Origin: a virus
UHGV virus genome: UHGV-0126577
Direction: 5' to 3' (one strand)
Length of the DNA stretch: 28,400 nucleotides
Positions within the stretch are counted from its first letter, which is position 1, and every line of letters begins with the position of its first letter. This document shows positions 1-7,592 of this stretch, in pieces. The notes below the pieces were generated by a model. The model worked only from the letters and a program-made list of their open reading frames with translations. It was not told where the DNA came from and searched no databases. The translations under genes were made by a program, and so were the position numbers.

Positions 1-403
1 CCGGCAACGCCTTTTTAGCTTTGCGTGGGTTAACCACATGGCCTTTAGTCCAGTACTCGTAGAGCACATCGTCACACTCTTCCTGATACTGGATTACCTT
101 GTCGCGGATTTCAGGGCGGACTTTGTTAGGGCTGATGGTTTGCAACCAGCCAGCAAGTTTGCGAAGTGCCAAACAAATAATCTCACGGCGCTGTTCATCC
201 CCAGGAAGCTGCATTGTGATTTTCACAATGCAGGTTTTAAACCGCTGCTTCATTTTCGTAAACTGTGAAGCCCAATCCATACCCATGCCTTCAACGATAG
301 GTTTCATTGGGGTGTACGGTTCTCCGTTGTGATTGACAACATAAAGTTCTGCGCCGTGGAATGGCACGTTGATAGTAGATACCGCTGTTGCTATACTCGT
401 CAT
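1..403 (-). CDS. Phage antirepressor-like protein (Ant-like), N-terminal part; start at 403, 3' end beyond the window
   Basis: Minus-strand frame open from the ATG at 403-401 to position 1 (MTSIATAVSTINVPFHGAELYVVNHNGEPYTPMKPIVEGMGMDW...). Not in the ORF track because no stop falls in the window. Sits downstream of the Arc-like gene as ant does in P22 immI. Family assignment is from memory of Ant/Bro-N-type N-termini. Confidence 0.55.
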   Translation of the reverse strand, partial: MTSIATAVSTINVPFHGAELYVVNHNGEPYTPMKPIVEGMGMDWASQFTKMKQRFKTCIVKITMQLPGDEQRREIICLALRKLAGWLQTISPNKVRPEIRDKVIQYQEECDDVLYEYWTKGHVVNPRKAKKALP

Positions 404-475
404 GTCGTTAATTCCTATACGTAGTTTTACGATACTGAAGCCCTGACGGTCTGGCCACCGTTGGGCTTCGCTGTT

Positions 476-643
476 TTATGCCACGCTATTCTTCTCACCA
501 GTGAGTCCATACACTTTCCTCAGCTGATAGATAATCTCTGTATTGAACTTTCGGCATTCTTTTTCGCCATTTCTTTCAATAGCTAACTTCACATCGTCCG
601 GAAAACGAACCCGTCGTTGACACATCTCTTTTGCTTTTTGCAT
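476..643 (-). CDS. Arc-like ribbon-helix-helix repressor (55 aa)
   Basis: The ORF 476..679 is trimmed to the internal ATG at 643-641, which is preceded by AAGGAG with a 7-nt spacer. Product MQKAKEMCQRRVRFPDDVKLAIERNGEKECRKFNTEIIYQLRKVY... has an RHH-like beta-strand/helix pattern and lies between the mnt-like and ant-like genes. Confidence 0.6.
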   Translation of the reverse strand: MQKAKEMCQRRVRFPDDVKLAIERNGEKECRKFNTEIIYQLRKVYGLTGEKNSVA

Positions 644-763
644 TTCATATCTCCTTAGCCCCACCGTGGGGCAAAACAATTGTCACACCGTGCGTCATTG
701 ATGTCAAGCACACGGTGAGGCATACTTCAATCATTGCAAGTAACTCAATATTTGGTGAAGAAC
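644..763. promoter_or_regulatory. Divergent, overlapping promoter/operator region (Pant-like on minus, Pmnt-like on plus)
   Basis: Minus strand: perfect -35 TTGACA (complement of 702-707), 17-nt spacer, -10 GACAAT (complement of 679-684). Plus strand: -35 TTGATG 698-703, 17-nt spacer, -10 CATACT 721-726. Heptamer CACCGTG at 662-668 and 686-692 and its reverse complement CACGGTG at 711-717. GC-rich inverted repeat GCCCCA-CCG-TGGGGC at 658-672, just upstream of the Arc-like SD. Confidence 0.45.
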
Positions 764-1195
764 ATGAGCAGAGAAGATCCACAACTAAGGATCAGACTTC
801 CCGTTGAAGTAAAAGAAAAAATAGAAATTTCTGCAAAAGCCAATAAGCGATCAATGAACGCTGAAATAGTACAACGTCTTGACACCAGCTTTCTGAAAGA
901 TATTCATGAAGATGACGTAATTTCTGCTTATGAAGCAAAAATTATTGCAAACAATGCACGGCATGAAATATCAAATATTATTTTCAAAAGAACTTTTAAT
1001 GAAATCAATAAAAAAATAACACTTGGACATACAAGTTTTTATATAAACCTTAATGACCTTGAACTGGAATCACTTGCAGATAATGATTACCAGATCATCT
1101 TTGAAAAAACATTTAATAAGCTCAATGAACTAGGTTACATCATCTGTGAAAACTCATGGGATGCAGATGGTTTTGGAATTGAAATACCTGAATAG
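764..1195 (+). CDS. Mnt-like ribbon-helix-helix repressor with an extended AT-rich C-terminal domain (143 aa)
   Basis: The ORF 734..1195 is trimmed to the ATG at 764. N-terminus MSREDPQLRIRLPVEVKEKIEISAKANKRSMNAEIVQRLDTSF matches the Arc/Mnt RHH pattern (P22 Mnt has RMPMEVREKL...GRSMNSELLQIV). The C-terminal ~95 aa are encoded by markedly AT-rich DNA. Confidence 0.6.
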   Translation: MSREDPQLRIRLPVEVKEKIEISAKANKRSMNAEIVQRLDTSFLKDIHEDDVISAYEAKIIANNARHEISNIIFKRTFNEINKKITLGHTSFYINLNDLELESLADNDYQIIFEKTFNKLNELGYIICENSWDADGFGIEIPE

Positions 1196-1285
1196 GAAGA
1201 ACAAAAGGCGTGTACATATTACACGTCTTTAATACAATTGAAAAACGCCACATTACTGATGTATGTTACAACAAGGAGCGATATT

Positions 1286-1849
1286 TTGAAAACCATATCT
1301 ATATTAAAGGTTGCATTAGGCGTCGCTATTATTTTGACTCTCTCAATATTGTTTTATTTTTACCACAAAAAAACTGCTATTGCTCTTGATGGTCACGCGG
1401 CAAACTCATTTTTCTCAGAGTACATAGTGCCGCTATCAGGAAGCGGTATAACAAATAAATATACTGACTATGACATCAAATATGGAATTGATGATGGGGA
1501 GACTATTGCATTACATGTAATCATTAAAAACCTAATGACAGTAAATAAAAATACAGACTTCAACGATAAAAATACAATACATCACAACAACAGCAAAACA
1601 TTAATTTCTTATAGTAGCAACATCTATACGGATAAATACCTAAAATACATCTCAGAAGATACAATAAAAGCAACCAGCGAAAAGTTAAAAAACATATATT
1701 GTGCATCCGGCAGTTTTCACAAATTATCGCCGCAAGAGCGTTTATTCTACGAAGCAAGAAAACAACGTAAGTCAATAATATTACATTATTATGCTGATTC
1801 AGGGGAGTCACTCATATTTAATATTGGGGTTTCCCCTGAATCATGCTAA
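1286..1849 (+). CDS. Membrane-anchored orphan protein (cargo/moron; candidate superinfection-exclusion-type function)
   Basis: Track ORF is 1238..1849. The in-frame TTG at 1286 is preceded by AAGGAG (1273-1278, 7-nt spacer) and gives an N-terminus KTISILKVALGVAIILTLSILFYFY typical of a signal-anchor. The ATG at 1238 lies within a candidate -35 (TTGAAA 1238-1243), so the start is uncertain. Very AT-rich compared with neighbours. Occupies the position of sieA in P22. Confidence 0.5.
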   Translation: MKTISILKVALGVAIILTLSILFYFYHKKTAIALDGHAANSFFSEYIVPLSGSGITNKYTDYDIKYGIDDGETIALHVIIKNLMTVNKNTDFNDKNTIHHNNSKTLISYSSNIYTDKYLKYISEDTIKATSEKLKNIYCASGSFHKLSPQERLFYEARKQRKSIILHYYADSGESLIFNIGVSPESC

Positions 1850-1860
1850 AGGCGTTTAAC

Positions 1861-4800
1861 TCACCGCATCACCGGATCCACCTGGTTTATTAGTGGCGCA
1901 ATCCAGAACAGGTTATTGCCTGGTATCAGGGTTCGGACATTATGCACAATACGATCACCGGCATCACCATTCAACACTCCTGCGGTCACATCAATGATGC
2001 TATCCGCAAGACCAAATGACGGTCCGAATAGAGATCCTACGAATCCACGACTGGCATACCTAGACTGTGTGCCAGTGCCAAATAAAGCCCCCAGCCCAAC
2101 AGCACCACCAGTAGCCTTTTCAGCCATGTTGTTATATTCCATCAATGGCCCAAGAATACCGGATCTATCTATACCCTCAAGCACCAGCTTCTCTGGTGAC
2201 CAGTCAACATTTTTCCCTTTCGATGCTTCTTTTAGCGCATAGACCAGTGAGCCAAGAGCAATCTGAAATGCAGTGCCATAATAAAATTGCGCAGTTCCTT
2301 CCTGTAACCCACCAAGTAGCGCACGGTTGTATGAAGCCGTTGTGAATGATTTAAACTGAAATATCGTTCGCCCCATTGGAGTACTCGCCCATAAAGGTGT
2401 GTCACCAATACCGGGGGTGATGATAGTGTTATTAACGTCTTTCAGAACCGCTGACTGGAATACTCCGGCAACGTACTGATCGTCCCATTTATCAAAGTTA
2501 CCAATGTGCCATCCCTCAATTACCTCACCATGTTTCTCGAACTCACTGCGAATACGCGCAGCCATATTGTCGTTGATACCGAGTTTTGCCATGCGACGTG
2601 CAGAAAACGCACCAGACAAAATACCGTCTGACGTGAGCATTCCGTTCATGGATTTGTTTATGTCATTAAATCGATCCATGAGTGTCAGCTTGCCGAAGGC
2701 ATCAGTAATTCGCTCCATTCCTGCTTCGACTGCTGTTGTCCTGGAAGAACTGTCAACAAGATCACCAATTGCACGAGAACGTGAATGCAGTACAGCTTCC
2801 AATCCAATCCCCATCTTCAACATCTCTTCTTTGCTGGCCTTAAATGCCGGTGATTGGGATATCTGAGAAGCATAGCCTTTCATGGTGTTACGGAAACCAT
2901 TAACCATAACCCCTCTGGCCAGATCTGGAATAGCTGATACTGTCATTCCACCGAGTTTGGTCGTGAAGTTCACATCCCGCAGAAAAGCGCCAGCACGAAC
3001 AAAAAACGAAGACGGATCATCAGGCATACCATATGTACCAACAAGACGATCGCGTAATGCTGTTATGTCTCTGAGATCATTTGCTCTTGATTTTGAAAGT
3101 CTGGACTGTTCTTTCCGTAATTCCTTTTCGTACTTTCGCATTAATGAATCGAGTTTACCCTGAGGAACAACTTCACCATTGCTCTCATAACGTGCTTTCA
3201 GATTTGCCACACTTTCGTCATATTTCGCCTTTATTTTTTCAGGCACTTCCCGTAACAGACTGTCATATTCGTCCTCAATTAATTGCAGACGCTCAGTCAT
3301 AGTTCGTTTACCAAATGTTCTCGTCAACTCAATTTCTGCTGCCGCTTCACGGATATGACGTTGCAGCACGTAATTCACATCACTTTCAAGATAATCCCTG
3401 ATAAGACTATCAGGAACATTTAATGTTCTTTCTTTCGTACTACCTGCGGCTTTTACAGAAAATACGCTGACAAAATCCTGTGGAACCTTAGCACCAGTAA
3501 TTTTATTAATTACGATATCCGCTGCAATTTCAGCATCCTCAGGATCCAGTGTTTTATTTCCTCTCGACCACCAGTCAACCAAAATACGTCGAAATTTATC
3601 GCGTTCACTGATTATTTTTCCAACTTTATATATACGTGGAAAATAGCTTGCCTGGCCTAATGCTTTCAGTTCTTCATCTGGCGGTAATAAACCAAGCTTT
3701 TGCATTTCAACCTTCACCCGATTTAATACAGTTCGCATCGCCTGCGCCGTTTCCTGAACAACAGGATTAGCATGCACATCACCGCTTCGCATAGCATTCC
3801 CAACCTGCTGACGAAATGAATCAAAACTCATGTCGCCACCATCAGCTTTATACTTTGCGTATGCCTGTTTATTTCCGACAACAACAGCAGCTTCTTCACG
3901 CTGCCATCCACGTGTACGGGTTTCTACAGCTACCGGTGTTTCAATCCCCCTTTCATTTCCTTTAAGGGTGAAATTATTTTCGGCTAACTCCAGCGTTGTT
4001 TTTCGCACTGTCTTGGACGGAGACTCCATTAACCTTGTCAAAGGAGTAAGATAGCTCCCTGCTTTCCATGCAGCCTTTCCAACCCACCCACCGGAAACAG
4101 GGGTTAAATCATCCAGAGTCGCTGTATCAATTTTCATAGCACCAACACTACCACCATCAGAAAGCGAAGCGGCAGCCCTGTCAGTCGCTGATGTAATGCT
4201 CATATTATCAAGAGCATCAGCAACCTCACGTGTGGCTGCAGCCCGGACGGATGGCGAAAGCGCAACACCAGCACTGGCAAACACGCCGCTCATCATCGCA
4301 CCCGCTGCAACGTGAGCGGCACTTTCACCCCATGAGCGTGTTATTTGCTGATTATTCAGCACAACCTCGCTTAATGCTGTACCGGCAGCACCAATCGCAA
4401 TCTGTGAGCCAATACGCGCCAGTGCCCCTCCTTGAGCACCGGGGATAAACATTGACGCAACAGTAACCGGATCCATTCCCGCAGCAATACTGGCAAGAGT
4501 TCCAACTACGCCAGCATCAGACAATAAACGTCTGTCTTCATTTTCATCATCTATCTGCTGCTTAATCCACGCCGTTTCCTCTGGCGATCGGGAATCTGCA
4601 AATTTCGCCCCCCAGTATTCATAACCGTGCAACTCATTTTTATCAGCATATGGGTTATAACCTTCGACCAGTTCAAACTGTCTGGCTGGTCGGAAAAAAC
4701 CAGCCAGAATATTGTTCTGTCGCATTGCAGCCCCCCATACGGAAGGCTCCGGTGGCAATGGCTCAGGATTAGCCCCTTCCGGAAGGGCAACATCAAACCC

Positions 4801-4875
4801 AGTTTGTTCCGGCAAAACATTACCTGACGGGATCAGTCCGTTATTAAGATCTTCAGCTTGTGCATAAACTGGCAT
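1861..4875 (-). CDS. Large internal virion/ejection protein (T7 gp16-like position), 1004 aa
   Basis: Long ORF ending the structural operon. Its start overlaps the upstream stop (TAATG). Gly/Ala-rich regions. Call is by position after the gp14/gp15-like genes. Confidence 0.6.
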   Translation of the reverse strand: MPVYAQAEDLNNGLIPSGNVLPEQTGFDVALPEGANPEPLPPEPSVWGAAMRQNNILAGFFRPARQFELVEGYNPYADKNELHGYEYWGAKFADSRSPEETAWIKQQIDDENEDRRLLSDAGVVGTLASIAAGMDPVTVASMFIPGAQGGALARIGSQIAIGAAGTALSEVVLNNQQITRSWGESAAHVAAGAMMSGVFASAGVALSPSVRAAATREVADALDNMSITSATDRAAASLSDGGSVGAMKIDTATLDDLTPVSGGWVGKAAWKAGSYLTPLTRLMESPSKTVRKTTLELAENNFTLKGNERGIETPVAVETRTRGWQREEAAVVVGNKQAYAKYKADGGDMSFDSFRQQVGNAMRSGDVHANPVVQETAQAMRTVLNRVKVEMQKLGLLPPDEELKALGQASYFPRIYKVGKIISERDKFRRILVDWWSRGNKTLDPEDAEIAADIVINKITGAKVPQDFVSVFSVKAAGSTKERTLNVPDSLIRDYLESDVNYVLQRHIREAAAEIELTRTFGKRTMTERLQLIEDEYDSLLREVPEKIKAKYDESVANLKARYESNGEVVPQGKLDSLMRKYEKELRKEQSRLSKSRANDLRDITALRDRLVGTYGMPDDPSSFFVRAGAFLRDVNFTTKLGGMTVSAIPDLARGVMVNGFRNTMKGYASQISQSPAFKASKEEMLKMGIGLEAVLHSRSRAIGDLVDSSSRTTAVEAGMERITDAFGKLTLMDRFNDINKSMNGMLTSDGILSGAFSARRMAKLGINDNMAARIRSEFEKHGEVIEGWHIGNFDKWDDQYVAGVFQSAVLKDVNNTIITPGIGDTPLWASTPMGRTIFQFKSFTTASYNRALLGGLQEGTAQFYYGTAFQIALGSLVYALKEASKGKNVDWSPEKLVLEGIDRSGILGPLMEYNNMAEKATGGAVGLGALFGTGTQSRYASRGFVGSLFGPSFGLADSIIDVTAGVLNGDAGDRIVHNVRTLIPGNNLFWIAPLINQVDPVMR

Positions 4876-7592
4876 TATTTAGATCCCCACGAAAAGTAAT
4901 CTTTAAATTTGTCCATACGTTCGTTATGCAGGCGCTGATACTGCTCATCCAGAGCGCGATGCTTGTCTTTGAAGTTTCGTATAGCCTGTCCACGCATAAT
5001 TTCTTCCTGCTCGTACTGCTCCCGTTCCTGCTGCATTTTCTTATAAGGTTCCCAATCTTCTAGTGATGGTTCCCAACGCATAGGACGCCCATGTTTGTTA
5101 TAAAACGGCTGGACCCGATCGATGCCATTTTCATCCTTAGTTCTTACCATAATGGCGTAATCACCATTACGAGGTGTTAACACGTCAGGGGTTATGAATA
5201 ATTCTCCATTAATACGACTCTCAGGGGTTTTTGTCTCAACTACAGGAGCATTACCTGACGTGATCCCAAGCAACGTCGGACTGGTTGTTATAATCTCTTT
5301 GCGCTCACCGTACATCAGCCGTTCTTTTTCAGCTTTCCACTGCGCCGCCTGCCAGCCTGACGGCCCATATTGATAAAGCGCCTCCGGTGCATATTTCATA
5401 AACTGCGCTTCTCCGTTAACCTCGCTGATACTCCAGGTGCGGGCTATCTGCTGGTTGGTCATTTGCTTCGCTACGTCAGCGTTACCACCAGCAACGCGGT
5501 AGTTAATGTCATACAGCGTCTGATAGTCATTACGGAATCTAGCTGCTTCCGGCGTCTGGTCATCCGCAGACGGATCCCAACGGAACCACTGCGCCATATT
5601 GCTGACAGCAGAATTCATCGCCTTGCTGCGATCATTTTTGTACTCTTTTGAACTCTGCGTTGATGCCAATTGAGCTTTAAGAGCATCGGTCTGGTTGTAC
5701 GTAAGGTTCTGCGCCTGCTCGATAGCCGCATCAGCAGACATGCCAGAATCAGTTAGTTGCTTAACAGTCAGATAAAAACCCTGCATATCCTTCGGCATAT
5801 TTCCAATAGATGCATTGTCTGTTTCATATAACCGACTAAACAGTTCAGCCGCATTTTTAACCACTTCCTGATTGCTGGATCGGGATACTGCTGAAAGCTG
5901 CGTGATGACCTGCGAAGGCATTATGCCAGTCTGAGCCACAAGCCGAACAACCCCATCATGAGTGGAGGCATCATTAATACGAAAGTTCTGCGCCATTTCT
6001 GTGTAATCAGCAGCTTTCTGCATTGACTTGTTGCTTGGGTCTAATTTTTCACCTATTGTCAGCGCCTCATTAAATCTGCGTGAATCCCGTTGCGCCTGAA
6101 TTGCTTCATTTGATCTCTGAAGCAATGCAGACAATTTTCCGTAAGCATCGAGTTTTAACGCATAGTGAGGATCGTTAACCTCAGGCTTCACTTTCTGCAT
6201 TTCTTCTTGCTGCTGAGAAGGAGGCAAATACTGAATTGCCTGGAATATTCTCGCGTTATCAATCGCTATATCCAGTTGGTTGATTATTTTATCTGCGTTT
6301 TTTCCATACCCCCTGATGATGGTCTCCTGAGCCGGTATATAATCTGGAACCTCACCGTTATATAGCTGGGCCATGGTGTTATTAATAGCTGGCTCAAGCT
6401 GTTCTAATATTAACTTCCTTTGCTTTTCTATCTGACTATTAGCAAGGTTATCTATTTGATAAATAGTCAGCGGATCCATTCCAGTTTTATTTTTTCTATA
6501 TCGGGAAAGCCACCCTTGTGTTTCTGATGGAAGATTTCTGATAAATTCTTCTTCTGATATTTCACCTTTACGTGGATCACCGACTTTGGCGATCAGTTTA
6601 TCCACGTTACCCATCCCCCAGTTATATGCTGCTCCGGCCAATATTTCGGAGCCGTACTTACCATACAGTTGATTTACATAGTCACTGGCGAGCATTTCAT
6701 GCTGTTGTTCGTCCGTAGGGTTGTATTCAACGCCACGCTTGGCCGCCAGTTCTTTCCCTGTGCCCGGCATTAACTGGTATTTCCCCTGGGCTCTCTCTCC
6801 AGAAGATGTTATCGGTCCTTCAAGAAGACTACCATCAGGATTAAAATGTCGATCACCTGATTCAACAAGGCGTATGGCACGCATGTCCATGCCTCCAGAA
6901 TCATTTTTCTGAAACAGACCATTTAGCCATCCTTCTGGATTGGCAGCGGCATAATTCTTCGCCCGCGTTTCTGTGGCACTGCGATCATCACTTTCTATTT
7001 CTTCCAGAATGCGTTCTTGTGACCATCCCCTGGCAGCTCCATATCTGGCAATGGCTACCATTCTGGAATTTCTGGCTAAAGTGGCAGTTTGCGGGTCATT
7101 CCAGGCATCCGCTTCATTTTGTATCCATAATTTTCTCGTTGCCTGATATTGCTCATCTTCATAGGCATTTGTCTGCCCTATCTCATGTCTGAGAACTCCA
7201 GTACTGAACTGAATTTTCTGTGTTCTGGCTTGTTGCAAAAACATATTTCTTGCTGCTTCATCAGTCAATGAAGCAGCTATTTCTTCCACATCCTGATCAA
7301 ATCCAGATATGTACTCTTGCCCCTTACCAATCGCATTTTTGCCTTGTTGTGCATAAAAACCGGTTTGAGGGTTATAAAGACGTTCATTGCTGCGCTGATT
7401 AAGCTGAAGGATGGCATCCTGAGACAATGCAACATTCGCTTTCTGCCTGGCTTCACCATATGCCACCGCATACTGATCTGCGACATTCGCCAGCACCTGA
7501 CCTGCTTGAGGAACATCGAAGGTTTGAAAACCACCGGTTTGCACACCACGACTTTGCACCTGGCGTCCGGATGTAGTAGGAACAACAGGCAT
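4875..7592 (-). CDS. Internal virion protein with lytic transglycosylase (SLT) domain, 905 aa
   Basis: SLT-like motif block in the translation: ...LVESGDRHFNPDGS...GKYQLMPGTGKEL...AYNWGMGNV. Strong SD AGGAGG 7 nt upstream of the ATG at 7592. Confidence 0.7.
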   Translation of the reverse strand: MPVVPTTSGRQVQSRGVQTGGFQTFDVPQAGQVLANVADQYAVAYGEARQKANVALSQDAILQLNQRSNERLYNPQTGFYAQQGKNAIGKGQEYISGFDQDVEEIAASLTDEAARNMFLQQARTQKIQFSTGVLRHEIGQTNAYEDEQYQATRKLWIQNEADAWNDPQTATLARNSRMVAIARYGAARGWSQERILEEIESDDRSATETRAKNYAAANPEGWLNGLFQKNDSGGMDMRAIRLVESGDRHFNPDGSLLEGPITSSGERAQGKYQLMPGTGKELAAKRGVEYNPTDEQQHEMLASDYVNQLYGKYGSEILAGAAYNWGMGNVDKLIAKVGDPRKGEISEEEFIRNLPSETQGWLSRYRKNKTGMDPLTIYQIDNLANSQIEKQRKLILEQLEPAINNTMAQLYNGEVPDYIPAQETIIRGYGKNADKIINQLDIAIDNARIFQAIQYLPPSQQQEEMQKVKPEVNDPHYALKLDAYGKLSALLQRSNEAIQAQRDSRRFNEALTIGEKLDPSNKSMQKAADYTEMAQNFRINDASTHDGVVRLVAQTGIMPSQVITQLSAVSRSSNQEVVKNAAELFSRLYETDNASIGNMPKDMQGFYLTVKQLTDSGMSADAAIEQAQNLTYNQTDALKAQLASTQSSKEYKNDRSKAMNSAVSNMAQWFRWDPSADDQTPEAARFRNDYQTLYDINYRVAGGNADVAKQMTNQQIARTWSISEVNGEAQFMKYAPEALYQYGPSGWQAAQWKAEKERLMYGERKEIITTSPTLLGITSGNAPVVETKTPESRINGELFITPDVLTPRNGDYAIMVRTKDENGIDRVQPFYNKHGRPMRWEPSLEDWEPYKKMQQEREQYEQEEIMRGQAIRNFKDKHRALDEQYQRLHNERMDKFKDYFSWGSK

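What the first reader, a model, noticed from the sequence alone, without database searches (positions are those of the whole stretch)
764..1849. AT-rich cargo at the P22 sieA position: membrane-anchored orphan protein beside a Mnt-like repressor with a foreign C-terminal domain
Base composition drops sharply from about 850 to 1850, against roughly 50% GC in the flanking ejection-protein and Arc/Ant-like genes. The AT-rich tract covers the C-terminal two thirds of the Mnt-like gene and the whole downstream gene, which encodes a protein with a single N-terminal transmembrane anchor and no recognisable motif. In P22 this slot, between the last ejection gene and mnt, holds sieA. Acquisition is therefore recent and the location is a known cargo hotspot. 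The product is a candidate superinfection-exclusion or abortive-infection effector, and the chimeric Mnt-like protein may regulate or sense it. This is the most likely place in the window for an undescribed phage-exclusion function.
Basis: partly seen in the sequence, partly recalled or inferred. Interest (0 to 1): 0.7.

Follow-up and report, generated by a model that had tools for sequence, protein, structure and literature searches.

The report
Prophage membrane protein in sieA-like slot
An AT-rich island in an E. coli prophage holds a P22-style Mnt repressor gene and, beside the phage's DNA-ejection genes, an uncharacterised membrane-anchored periplasmic protein with a secretin-pilotin-like fold; it is a plausible but untested blocker of infection by related phages.

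Summary
Window 800-1800 is 27-36% GC against 44-50% in the flanks, and it is the only strong AT-rich island in the 28.4 kb.

The window is a TL-2011b-like temperate podophage with T7-type internal virion (ejectosome) genes. Its layout copies P22 immI: ant, sar RNA, arc, operators, Mnt-like gene, then a convergent gene abutting the last ejectosome gene, where P22 has sieA.

- **Mnt-like protein:** it is not a recent chimera. It is a full Mnt (DNA-binding fold plus tetramerisation helix) with a conserved 57-residue extension. At least 262 protein clusters across Enterobacterales share it, and the two homologues whose loci were examined sit in arc-ant cassettes without the downstream gene.
- **"Orphan" protein:** it belongs to a small, fast-evolving family. 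All eight further contexts examined place it at the same position, and only the window type has the Mnt-like gene upstream.
- **AT-richness:** the five relatives measured are also AT-poorer than their flanks, so recent acquisition is not shown.

The modelled periplasmic domain has the AspS/PA3611 pilotin topology with two invariant cysteines. It shows no sequence homology to AspS or to SieA. Near-identical E. coli prophages carry two other small membrane proteins in this slot. Superinfection exclusion is the best guess and is untested.

The parts
1..403 (-). 5' part of the antirepressor gene ant (runs off the window start)
   Evidence: Corresponds to TL-2011b gp42 'anti-repressor Ant'; the ATG is read at 403-401 on the minus strand.
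405..472 (+). sar antisense RNA, antisense to the arc-ant junction
   Evidence: Rfam RF00262 sar, 45.2 bits against a gathering score of 43, E 2e-07, full model 1-68. A terminator-like hairpin lies at 448-467 followed by a T run.
476..643 (-). arc-like repressor gene (55 aa)
   Evidence: PGAP calls a 168-nt gene here in the E. coli copies, with product MQKAKEMCQRRVRFPDDVKL.... It gives Arc-like PHROG hits and corresponds to TL-2011b gp41 'Arc-like repressor'.
644..763 (.). Divergent promoter and operator region
   Evidence: Three CACCGTG/CACGGTG repeats lie at 662, 686 and 711, and 658-672 holds the palindrome GCCCCAC-C-GTGGGGC. A minus-strand promoter-like site (TTGACA-17-GACAAT with an extended TG) spans 707-679. 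The block is nearly invariant in the Enterobacter and Yersinia pestis cassettes. A plus-strand TTGATG(699)-17-CATACT(722) was read by eye and is inferred.
764..1195 (+). Mnt-like repressor gene (143 aa): ribbon-helix-helix fold, Mnt-type helix, and a conserved 57-residue C-terminal extension
   Evidence: Pfam Arc E 1.1e-14; phrog_1388 matched full length. 32% identity to P22 Mnt over residues 1-86. At least 262 homologous clusters. pN/pS 0-0.06.
1209..1225 (.). Hairpin CGTGTA-CATAT-TACACG between the two genes
   Evidence: The terminator-like scan flagged it on the minus strand. On the plus strand it is followed by TCTTTAAT. Its function is not shown.
1211..1267 (+). Promoter-like hexamers upstream of the membrane-protein gene
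   Evidence: TGTACA-16-TACAAT (1211-1238) and TTGAAA-18-TATGTT (1238-1267), each 9 of 12 matches. These are consensus matches only.
1286..1849 (+). Gene for a 187-aa inner-membrane-anchored periplasmic protein (phrog_8033; equals TL-2011b gp39) with an AspS/PA3611-like fold
1861..4875 (-). Last large internal virion (ejectosome) protein gene, 1004 aa, convergent with the membrane-protein gene
   Evidence: Matches TL-2011b gp38. About 32% identical to a Vibrio phage CKB-S2 protein annotated 'putative internal virion protein 1'. Preceded by a 905-aa gene whose TL-2011b and E. coli copies are annotated as a lytic transglycosylase / SLT-domain protein. In related loci the gene one further upstream is a T7_gp14-like gene.
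1867..1911 (.). Mosaic junction: 45 nt conserved next to the variable slot
   Evidence: Similarity among the slot alleles begins at about 1866. The 45 nt are 100% identical in ST131-type prophages, where they carry no annotated feature.

Best explanation
The AT-rich tract contains two independent units.

Unit 1 is the repressor arm of a portable P22-type immI cassette: ant, sar antisense RNA, arc, overlapping divergent promoters with CACCGTG operators, and an Mnt-like repressor. The repressor is a complete Mnt with an added, conserved 57-residue C-terminal extension. It most likely binds the conserved operators as a higher-order oligomer and keeps the antirepressor off in the lysogen.

Unit 2 is a separate accessory gene, probably prophage-expressed, in the position of P22 sieA: convergent with, and 11 nt from, the last ejectosome gene. 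Its product is anchored in the inner membrane by one N-terminal helix (N-terminus in, C-terminus out). It exposes a periplasmic domain, probably disulfide-bonded, with the fold of the AspS/PA3611 pilotins, which bind a short segment of a partner protein. The most likely role is superinfection exclusion. Sitting where the trans-envelope DNA conduit must assemble, it would bind a segment of an incoming phage's ejected internal virion proteins, or otherwise block their insertion, and so stop DNA entry as P22 SieA does.

Shown: anatomy, family, synteny, composition, modelled fold. Inferred: topology, the disulfide, expression from the prophage, and the exclusion function and its target.
For: - immI cassette: sar RF00262 above the gathering score; Arc-type ribbon-helix-helix; 32% identity to all of P22 Mnt; the same gene order as P22; operator block conserved in E. 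coli, Enterobacter and Y. pestis cassettes; mnt-like pN/pS 0-0.06.
- Independence: the two Mnt-like homologues examined in context have no downstream partner; none of the eight further family contexts has an Arc/Mnt-like gene upstream.
- Real gene: an intact ORF in three further full-length copies (TL-2011b and two E. coli genomes), inside a 1.2-kb segment held at 97-100% identity by 36 E. coli genomes; pN/pS 0.2-0.3 in the divergent pair; family motifs and two conserved cysteines.
- Position: 9 of 9 contexts (the window plus eight others) are convergent with the 3' end of the last 937-1133-aa internal virion protein gene, sometimes overlapping it.
- Fast evolution: 28-30% identity where the neighbouring gene is 41-74% identical.
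- Topology: positive N-flank, negative or neutral C-flank, and two exported cysteines in nearly every member.
- Slot behaviour: two other small membrane proteins occupy the same slot in near-identical prophages.
Against: - No functional data exist, and nothing links the protein physically to the ejectosome.
- There is no homology to SieA (hhalign probability 0.3%), and the architecture differs (one transmembrane helix against three).
- The AspS similarity is fold-level only: hhalign against E. coli YghG gives 0.5%, Foldseek E-values are 0.09-0.29, and no Pfam hit appeared in any member.
- The model rests on a 16-sequence alignment, and residues 93-103 have low confidence.
- The promoter and terminator are consensus matches no more frequent than in shuffled sequence. 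Very AT-rich DNA may be silenced by H-NS in E. coli (general knowledge).
- Prophages with different slot occupants have nearly the same ejectosome gene end, so no co-variation with the proposed target is visible.
- The function of the Mnt extension is unknown.
Confidence: 0.42

Rival explanations
1. Lysogenic conversion aimed at a host envelope machine. The inner-membrane-tethered pilotin-like domain would bind a host periplasmic partner, such as the S-domain of a secretin (type II secretion GspD, or the pIV secretin of filamentous phages) or another outer-membrane assembly client. That would change secretion, surface structures or receptor availability rather than acting on the incoming ejectosome.
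For: The only structural relatives are secretin pilotins and PA3611, whose known activity is binding the secretin S-domain (PMC3542185). E. coli carries an AspS-type pilotin, yghG, beside type II secretion genes. The periplasmic location and the cysteine pair fit.
Against: There is no sequence similarity to YghG or AspS. The protein has no lipobox, so it cannot do a pilotin's outer-membrane targeting job. The gene is locked to the ejectosome operon end in nine of nine contexts, and in no locus examined does it sit beside secretion genes. Mislocalising a secretin to the inner membrane is generally harmful (general knowledge).
Confidence: 0.18
2. A toxic abortive-infection effector controlled or sensed by the neighbouring Mnt-like protein, so that the two genes form one system.
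For: The two genes are adjacent on the same strand, 90 nt apart, inside one AT-rich tract, and they travel together in 36 E. coli genomes.
Against: The two families occur apart in every other context examined. The Mnt-like operators lie in the arc-ant control region and not upstream of the membrane-protein gene. There is no significant PADLOC hit; ThsB at E 0.013 is below any credible level. A hairpin and promoter-like sites separate the genes. TL-2011b keeps the membrane-protein gene intact although its Mnt-like gene is frameshifted.
Confidence: 0.06
3. A lytic-cycle helper: a periplasmic chaperone or assembly factor for the phage's own envelope-spanning proteins, or a lysis modulator, rather than a lysogen function.
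For: The synteny with the ejectosome genes is strict (nine of nine contexts). The fold is pilotin- or chaperone-like.
Against: The gene is on the strand opposite the late operon in every lineage. tblastn found no copy in any other deposited phage, and the two relatives inspected (Escherichia phage EC.W1-9, Vibrio phage CKB-S2) have a co-directional gene, not a convergent one, after the ejectosome gene. It can be replaced by unrelated genes in near-identical prophages, so it is not needed for virion function. Ejectosome proteins are packaged from the cytoplasm, not the periplasm (general knowledge of T7- and P22-type phages).
Confidence: 0.07
4. A silent or decaying passenger gene with no current function in E. 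coli, kept only by linkage.
For: GC is very low, so H-NS silencing is plausible. Close alleles differ by 6 non-synonymous and 1 synonymous, or 3 and 0, changes. One variant has a 7-residue deletion.
Against: The ORF is intact in every full-length copy examined. Motifs and both cysteines are conserved at 28-44% identity across the lineages. pN/pS is 0.2-0.3 in the divergent pair. The deletion lies in the low-confidence surface insertion.
Confidence: 0.1

Closest known systems
P22 SieA (superinfection exclusion A, Lederbergvirus)
   Same: The gene position and orientation are the same: convergent with the last ejection-protein gene, downstream of mnt, on the strand opposite the late genes. Both are small inner-membrane proteins. 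Both are highly divergent at a fixed locus: SieA types share less than 30% identity (PMC10883804), and this family shares 28-44%.
   Different: There is no sequence homology (hhalign 0.3%). This protein has one N-terminal anchor and a roughly 150-residue periplasmic domain, against three predicted transmembrane segments in SieA. The host phage has T7-type internal virion proteins, not P22 gp7/gp20/gp16. No exclusion phenotype has been tested.
AspS / EpsS / GspS-beta (YghG) pilotins and PA3611
   Same: The modelled topology matches (helix 1, strands 1-3, helices 2-3, strands 4-5, C-terminal helix). The cysteine pair sits at the end of helix 2 and in the C-terminal turn. Both are periplasmic.
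   Different: Sequence similarity is not detectable. This protein has a transmembrane anchor in place of a lipoprotein signal, and a 29-residue insertion in the window's subfamily. It is encoded in a prophage and not in a type II secretion locus.
P22 Mnt repressor (Arc/MetJ ribbon-helix-helix family)
   Same: 32% identity over the whole 83-residue Mnt, including the C-terminal tetramerisation helix. The gene is divergent from arc-ant, with sar present.
   Different: It carries a conserved extra 57-residue C-terminal extension with no detectable relatives. The operator sequences differ (CACCGTG repeats). The cassette is mobile among podophage and siphophage prophages of many Enterobacterales.
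Membrane-tethered injection blockers of other phages (lactococcal Tuc2009 Sie, streptococcal TP-J34 lipoprotein Ltp, HK97 gp15, T4 Imm/Sp)
   Same: The general design is shared: a small prophage- or phage-encoded protein tethered to the membrane, facing outward, and blocking DNA entry. Tuc2009 and TP-J34 are cited in PMC10883804; HK97 gp15 and T4 Imm/Sp appear in PMC11436027.
   Different: There is no sequence relationship (the PHROG scan returned only phrog_8033, of unknown function). BFVD gave no significant structural match. The targets are different phage types.

Membership tests
P22 SieA family | Sequence homology to one of the SieA types | tested here: not met
   hhalign of the family profile A2 against P22 SieA gives probability 0.3%. 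Only P22 SieA, one of the three types, was compared.
P22 SieA family | Polytopic inner-membrane protein (three predicted transmembrane segments) | tested here: not met
   One hydrophobic segment (residues 4-22); the maximum Kyte-Doolittle value elsewhere is 0.83. SieA topology is from PMC10883804.
P22 SieA family | Gene between the last ejection gene and mnt, on the opposite strand | tested here: met
   Window gene order compared with the P22 annotation.
P22 SieA family | Blocks DNA injection by related phages | not testable with these tools
   This needs expression and plating, or potassium-efflux assays.
AspS/GspS-beta pilotin family (including PA3611) | Alpha/beta fold: helix 1, strands 1-3, helices 2-3, strands 4-5, helix 4 | tested here: met
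AspS/GspS-beta pilotin family (including PA3611) | Conserved disulfide linking helix 2 to the C-terminal helix | tested here: inconclusive
   C139 at the end of helix 124-138 is invariant, and C187 in the C-terminal turn is conserved in every full-length member. The positions are equivalent to AspS Cys74 and Cys111. The model coordinates could not be inspected.
AspS/GspS-beta pilotin family (including PA3611) | Detectable sequence homology | tested here: not met
   No pilotin family among the Pfam hits of the 16 members. The profile search of PDB sequences did not find 4ftf or 3npd. hhalign against E. coli YghG gives 0.5%.
AspS/GspS-beta pilotin family (including PA3611) | Lipoprotein signal and outer-membrane targeting (AspS-type; PA3611 lacks it) | tested here: not met
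   The window protein has no cysteine in its N-terminal segment. Relatives have a cysteine preceded by L, V or I, which is not a canonical lipobox.
AspS/GspS-beta pilotin family (including PA3611) | Encoded with, and binding, a secretin | tested here: not met
   All nine contexts are prophage ejectosome operon ends. Binding cannot be tested here.
Mnt/Arc ribbon-helix-helix repressors of immI | N-terminal Arc-type ribbon-helix-helix domain | tested here: met
   Pfam PF03869 at E 1.1e-14. PDB profile hits to Arc and Mnt (1mnt, E 2.9e-07).
Mnt/Arc ribbon-helix-helix repressors of immI | Mnt-type C-terminal oligomerisation helix | tested here: met
   BLASTP aligns residues 55-86 with P22 Mnt residues 52-83; overall 32% identity, E 3e-14. 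Oligomerisation itself is not tested.
Mnt/Arc ribbon-helix-helix repressors of immI | Divergent from arc-ant, with sar RNA and shared operators | tested here: met
   Operator binding is not testable here.
Moron (independently expressed prophage accessory gene) | Composition distinct from the flanks | tested here: met
Moron (independently expressed prophage accessory gene) | Own promoter and terminator; expressed in the lysogen | tested here: inconclusive
   Only 9-of-12 consensus promoter matches and weak hairpins were found, and site counts are not above shuffled sequence. No expression data are available.

The most novel reading that the evidence does not exclude
The 187-aa protein founds a new structural class of superinfection-exclusion proteins. 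It would be an inner-membrane-tethered, pilotin-fold periplasmic 'decoy' that captures a helix of the incoming T7-type ejectosome (or of a secretin-like conduit) and aborts DNA entry. Its alleles would diversify in an arms race while staying genetically linked to the ejectosome operon.
Probability: 0.25. Interest if true: 0.65.

Novelty: new variant of a known kind. Interest (0 to 1): 0.45.

Why it matters
If the exclusion role holds, this would be the counterpart of P22 SieA for temperate podophages that use T7-type internal virion proteins, built on a completely different protein. A soluble, modelled periplasmic domain is easier to study than polytopic SieA. It could be used to map which part of the ejectosome is exposed in the periplasm during DNA entry.

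The result would also extend the AspS/PA3611 fold, so far tied to secretin biogenesis, to phage-phage conflict. Separately, the work identifies a widespread, portable arc-ant-sar-mnt cassette whose Mnt carries a conserved extra domain of unknown function. Among the hosts seen here is a Yersinia pestis prophage.

If the gene shows no phenotype, the region is an ordinary accessory-gene slot.

Tried and rejected
- Single-sequence AF2 of the membrane protein was too poor to use (pLDDT 51.8); the model built on alignment A2 was used instead.
- The afdb50 fold library was not available. BFVD gave nothing significant (best E 0.015, TM 0.28).
Contexts were obtained through the look-up of encoding contigs instead.
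- A PADLOC ThsB/TIR hit (E 0.013, 13.9 bits) was rejected as noise.
- Pfam hits to single family members (Imm42 at 0.0044, ParE and others) were rejected: one member each, all below cut-off.
- A PDB profile hit to iota-carbonic anhydrase (whole-sequence E 2.4e-05, but each stretch at E 1.5 or worse, summed over a repeat protein) was rejected as not supported by the fold search.
- The idea that the slot occupant of strain MS 196-1 (175 aa) is a divergent family member was rejected (hhalign 0.3%).
- Searches for relatives of the Mnt C-terminal extension found only leucine-rich-repeat noise at E 0.1 or worse and its own PHROG.
- The assumption that TL-2011b is epsilon15-like (from memory) was not used. 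The internal virion proteins point to a T7-type ejectosome, and the record's taxonomy is unclassified Caudoviricetes.
- Literature searches found no paper on TL-2011b gp39 or gp40, or on periplasmic exclusion proteins for such phages.
Full report
**Observation**

The composition drop is real and local. In 200-nt windows GC is 0.265-0.355 from 801 to 1800, against 0.44-0.50 on either side. In 500-nt windows the window-wide mean is 0.484 (sd 0.046), and the only windows below 0.38 start at 601-1501, with a minimum of 0.312.

Two plus-strand genes fill the tract.
- The first is 764-1195, 143 aa, starting MSREDPQLRIRLP.
- The second lies in ORF 1238-1849. Its start is best placed at TTG 1286, seven nt after AAGGAG, which gives 187 aa. 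PGAP and the TL-2011b record annotate the same 564-nt gene.
- Gene GC is 31.9% for the first (GC3 22.9%) and 32.8% for the second, against 46.4% for the adjacent 1004-aa gene.

**What the window is**

Positions 400-2000 are 99.1% identical to Escherichia phage TL-2011b, from an O103:H25 EHEC strain. Positions 700-1900 occur in full in 36 of 5426 complete E. coli genomes, always on the chromosome.

The minus-strand late genes next to the tract encode large internal virion proteins.
- The last one is 1004 aa and is preceded by a 905-aa gene. The TL-2011b and E. coli copies of that gene are annotated as a lytic transglycosylase (SLT-domain) protein.
- In related loci the gene one further upstream is T7_gp14-like.
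- A 32%-identical Vibrio phage protein is annotated as an internal virion protein.

So this is a temperate podophage with a T7-type ejectosome, not a P22-like phage. The layout nevertheless mirrors P22 immI. P22 has gene 16, then sieA, orf59a and mnt on the other strand, then arc and ant. Read in the same sense, the window has the 1004-aa gene, then the 187-aa gene and the Mnt-like gene on the other strand, then arc (476-643) and ant (1-403). Rfam finds sar RNA at 405-472, above its gathering score.

**The Mnt-like gene**

Pfam Arc matches residues 2-46 (E 1.1e-14). BLASTP aligns residues 1-86 with the entire P22 Mnt, including its C-terminal tetramerisation helix (32% identity, E 3e-14). Only about residues 87-143 are additional.

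That extension is not a local accident.
- The full-length architecture equals phrog_1388.
- It recurs in at least 262 protein clusters from Citrobacter, Enterobacter, Salmonella, Klebsiella, Yersinia, Proteus, Hafnia and other genera. The listed full-length relatives outside E. coli are 58-69% identical.
- Mean column identity is 73%, and many columns in the extension are invariant.
- Within E. coli its pN/pS is 0-0.06.

In Enterobacter prophages and in a lambda-like Yersinia pestis prophage the homologue is divergent from a 55-aa arc-like gene and a Bro-N or P22_AR_C antirepressor. The cassette is inserted among siphophage tail genes, and no same-strand gene follows it. The intergenic control block, with three CACCGTG/CACGGTG repeats and overlapping divergent promoter hexamers, is nearly invariant between these cassettes and the window.

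This gene is therefore the repressor of a portable arc-ant-sar-mnt cassette. The extension has no detectable relatives, and its role is unknown. Extra oligomerisation or ligand sensing are guesses only.

The window's copy is more AT-rich (31.9%) than the Enterobacter (43%) and Yersinia (39.8%) copies. This fits an origin in a lower-GC host but does not date the transfer.

**The membrane protein: family**

The word-indexed search found only near-identical sequences. The exhaustive HMMER search found 17 representatives, and a profile search added Providencia and Proteus proteins.

The alignment shows several shared features.
- A basic N-terminus is followed by one hydrophobic segment.
- The motifs LSGxxAxFFxxYxxP and DYxxxYGxDD are conserved.
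- YC (C139) is invariant, and the protein ends in a conserved SPxSC (C187).

Across members the N-flank carries a net charge of +2 to +4 and the C-flank is mostly negative. Nearly all members have exactly two cysteines after the anchor. This argues for an N-in, C-out topology and a periplasmic disulfide, which is an inference.

**The membrane protein: fold**

With the 16-sequence alignment, AF2 gives pLDDT 77 and pTM 0.69, with the core above 90.
- Foldseek independently ranks AspS, PA3611 and EpsS at the top (probabilities 0.95, 0.89 and 0.38; E 0.09-1.4).
- The AspS paper describes helix 1, strands 1-3, helices 2-3, strands 4-5 and helix 4, with a conserved disulfide from helix 2 to helix 4 that PA3611 shares (PMC3542185).
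- The model has the same order of elements, with C139 ending the helix-2 equivalent and C187 in the C-terminal turn.

Sequence methods do not see the relationship, and there is no lipobox. I file it as 'AspS/PA3611-like fold, membership not shown'.

**The membrane protein: genomic behaviour**

Eight further family contexts were examined: L011, L012-14, L015, L016-18 (carrying the protein that NCBI names from Providencia), L019, L031, L032 and L033. In all eight the gene is convergent with, and within 0-31 nt of or overlapping, the 3' end of the last 937-1133-aa internal virion gene. Two of them, L011 and L033, are short contigs that reach only a fragment of that gene. None of the eight upstream neighbours is an Arc/Mnt-like gene, and they differ from lineage to lineage.

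The protein is 28-30% identical between lineages whose neighbouring ejectosome protein is 41-74% identical. Its pN/pS (0.2-0.3, with close alleles differing by 6 non-synonymous and 1 synonymous changes) exceeds that of its neighbours. In the five relatives measured it is 3-13 GC points below the local background.

So it is a long-standing, rapidly diverging accessory gene of this phage group. AT-richness is a standing property of the gene, not proof of recent arrival.

The slot is also exchangeable. In E. coli prophages whose ejectosome gene end is 95-99.5% identical, the junction lies at that gene's stop codon (about window 1866). The slot can instead hold either of two other proteins.
- WP_000451652: 175 aa, with an N-terminal transmembrane anchor, on the plus strand (phrog_21690).
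- WP_001555166: 98 aa, with two hydrophobic segments, on the minus strand (phrog_21905).

No copy was found by tblastn in any other deposited phage. The two relatives inspected (Escherichia phage EC.W1-9 and Vibrio phage CKB-S2) have a co-directional gene after the ejectosome gene, not a convergent one.

**Mechanism**

The best-supported reading is a prophage accessory gene whose product sits in the inner membrane facing the periplasm and acts on DNA entry by related phages.

The closest precedent is P22 SieA (PMC10883804).
- It occupies the same slot and is an inner-membrane protein.
- Escape mutations map to the C-terminal regions of ejection proteins gp16 and gp20.

The pilotin-like fold suggests capture of a short helical segment of a partner. 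The partner could be an ejected internal virion protein (preferred, because of the strict linkage to that operon) or a host secretin (the rival). None of this has been tested. Promoter and terminator calls are consensus matches no more frequent than in shuffles, and H-NS silencing is possible.

I give the exclusion function about 0.4. The anatomical description deserves about 0.9.

**Verdict**

The Mnt 'chimera' and the 'recent acquisition' claims are corrected, and the two genes are uncoupled. What remains is an uncharacterised, testable candidate exclusion protein of a new structural type in a known kind of slot. Interest is moderate.

Noticed in passing
window 405-472 (+): A sar antisense RNA (Rfam RF00262, 45.2 bits, above the gathering score) lies between ant and arc. 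The P22-type immI control circuit is therefore complete in this non-P22 podophage.
   Followed up: partly
L001 (TL-2011b) about 6365-6797; window 764-1195: In the TL-2011b reference genome the Mnt-like gene has a 1-nt insertion after codon 9 (MSREDPQLRDQTSR*). It is annotated only as a 113-aa 'hypothetical protein' gp40. The window and the E. coli chromosomal copies are intact.
   Followed up: yes
window 1867-1911: A 45-nt stretch at the 3' end of the 1004-aa gene is 100% identical in many ST131-type E. coli prophages, where it carries no annotated feature and sits next to a different gene set (DUF919 protein, 98-aa WP_001555166). It looks like a shared recombination joint.
   Followed up: partly
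L020 4448-4975 (+); L022 3180-3476 (-): The same slot has alternative occupants in near-identical prophages. One is a 175-aa protein with an N-terminal transmembrane anchor (WP_000451652, phrog_21690). The other is a 98-aa protein with two glycine-rich hydrophobic segments (WP_001555166, phrog_21905). Both are uncharacterised.
   Followed up: partly
L002-L010 (Enterobacter and Yersinia pestis prophages), about 3600-5450 in each locus: The arc / antirepressor / Mnt-like cassette, with almost the same operator block, is inserted in the middle of siphophage tail-gene clusters. One such insertion lies between the lambda-like tail genes L/K and I/J of a Y. pestis prophage found on several hundred contigs.
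   Followed up: partly
L012 7492-7869 (-): An uncalled 125-aa ORF with a lipoprotein-like N-terminus (…FLAIGC…) lies in the 600-nt gap upstream of the family member in this lineage. It may be another envelope accessory gene.
   Followed up: no
window 1209-1225: A 6-bp-stem hairpin lies between the Mnt-like and membrane-protein genes. The scan called it a minus-strand terminator, so it could end late-operon read-through that runs antisense across the membrane-protein gene. Alternatively it could act as the Mnt-gene terminator on the plus strand.
   Followed up: no
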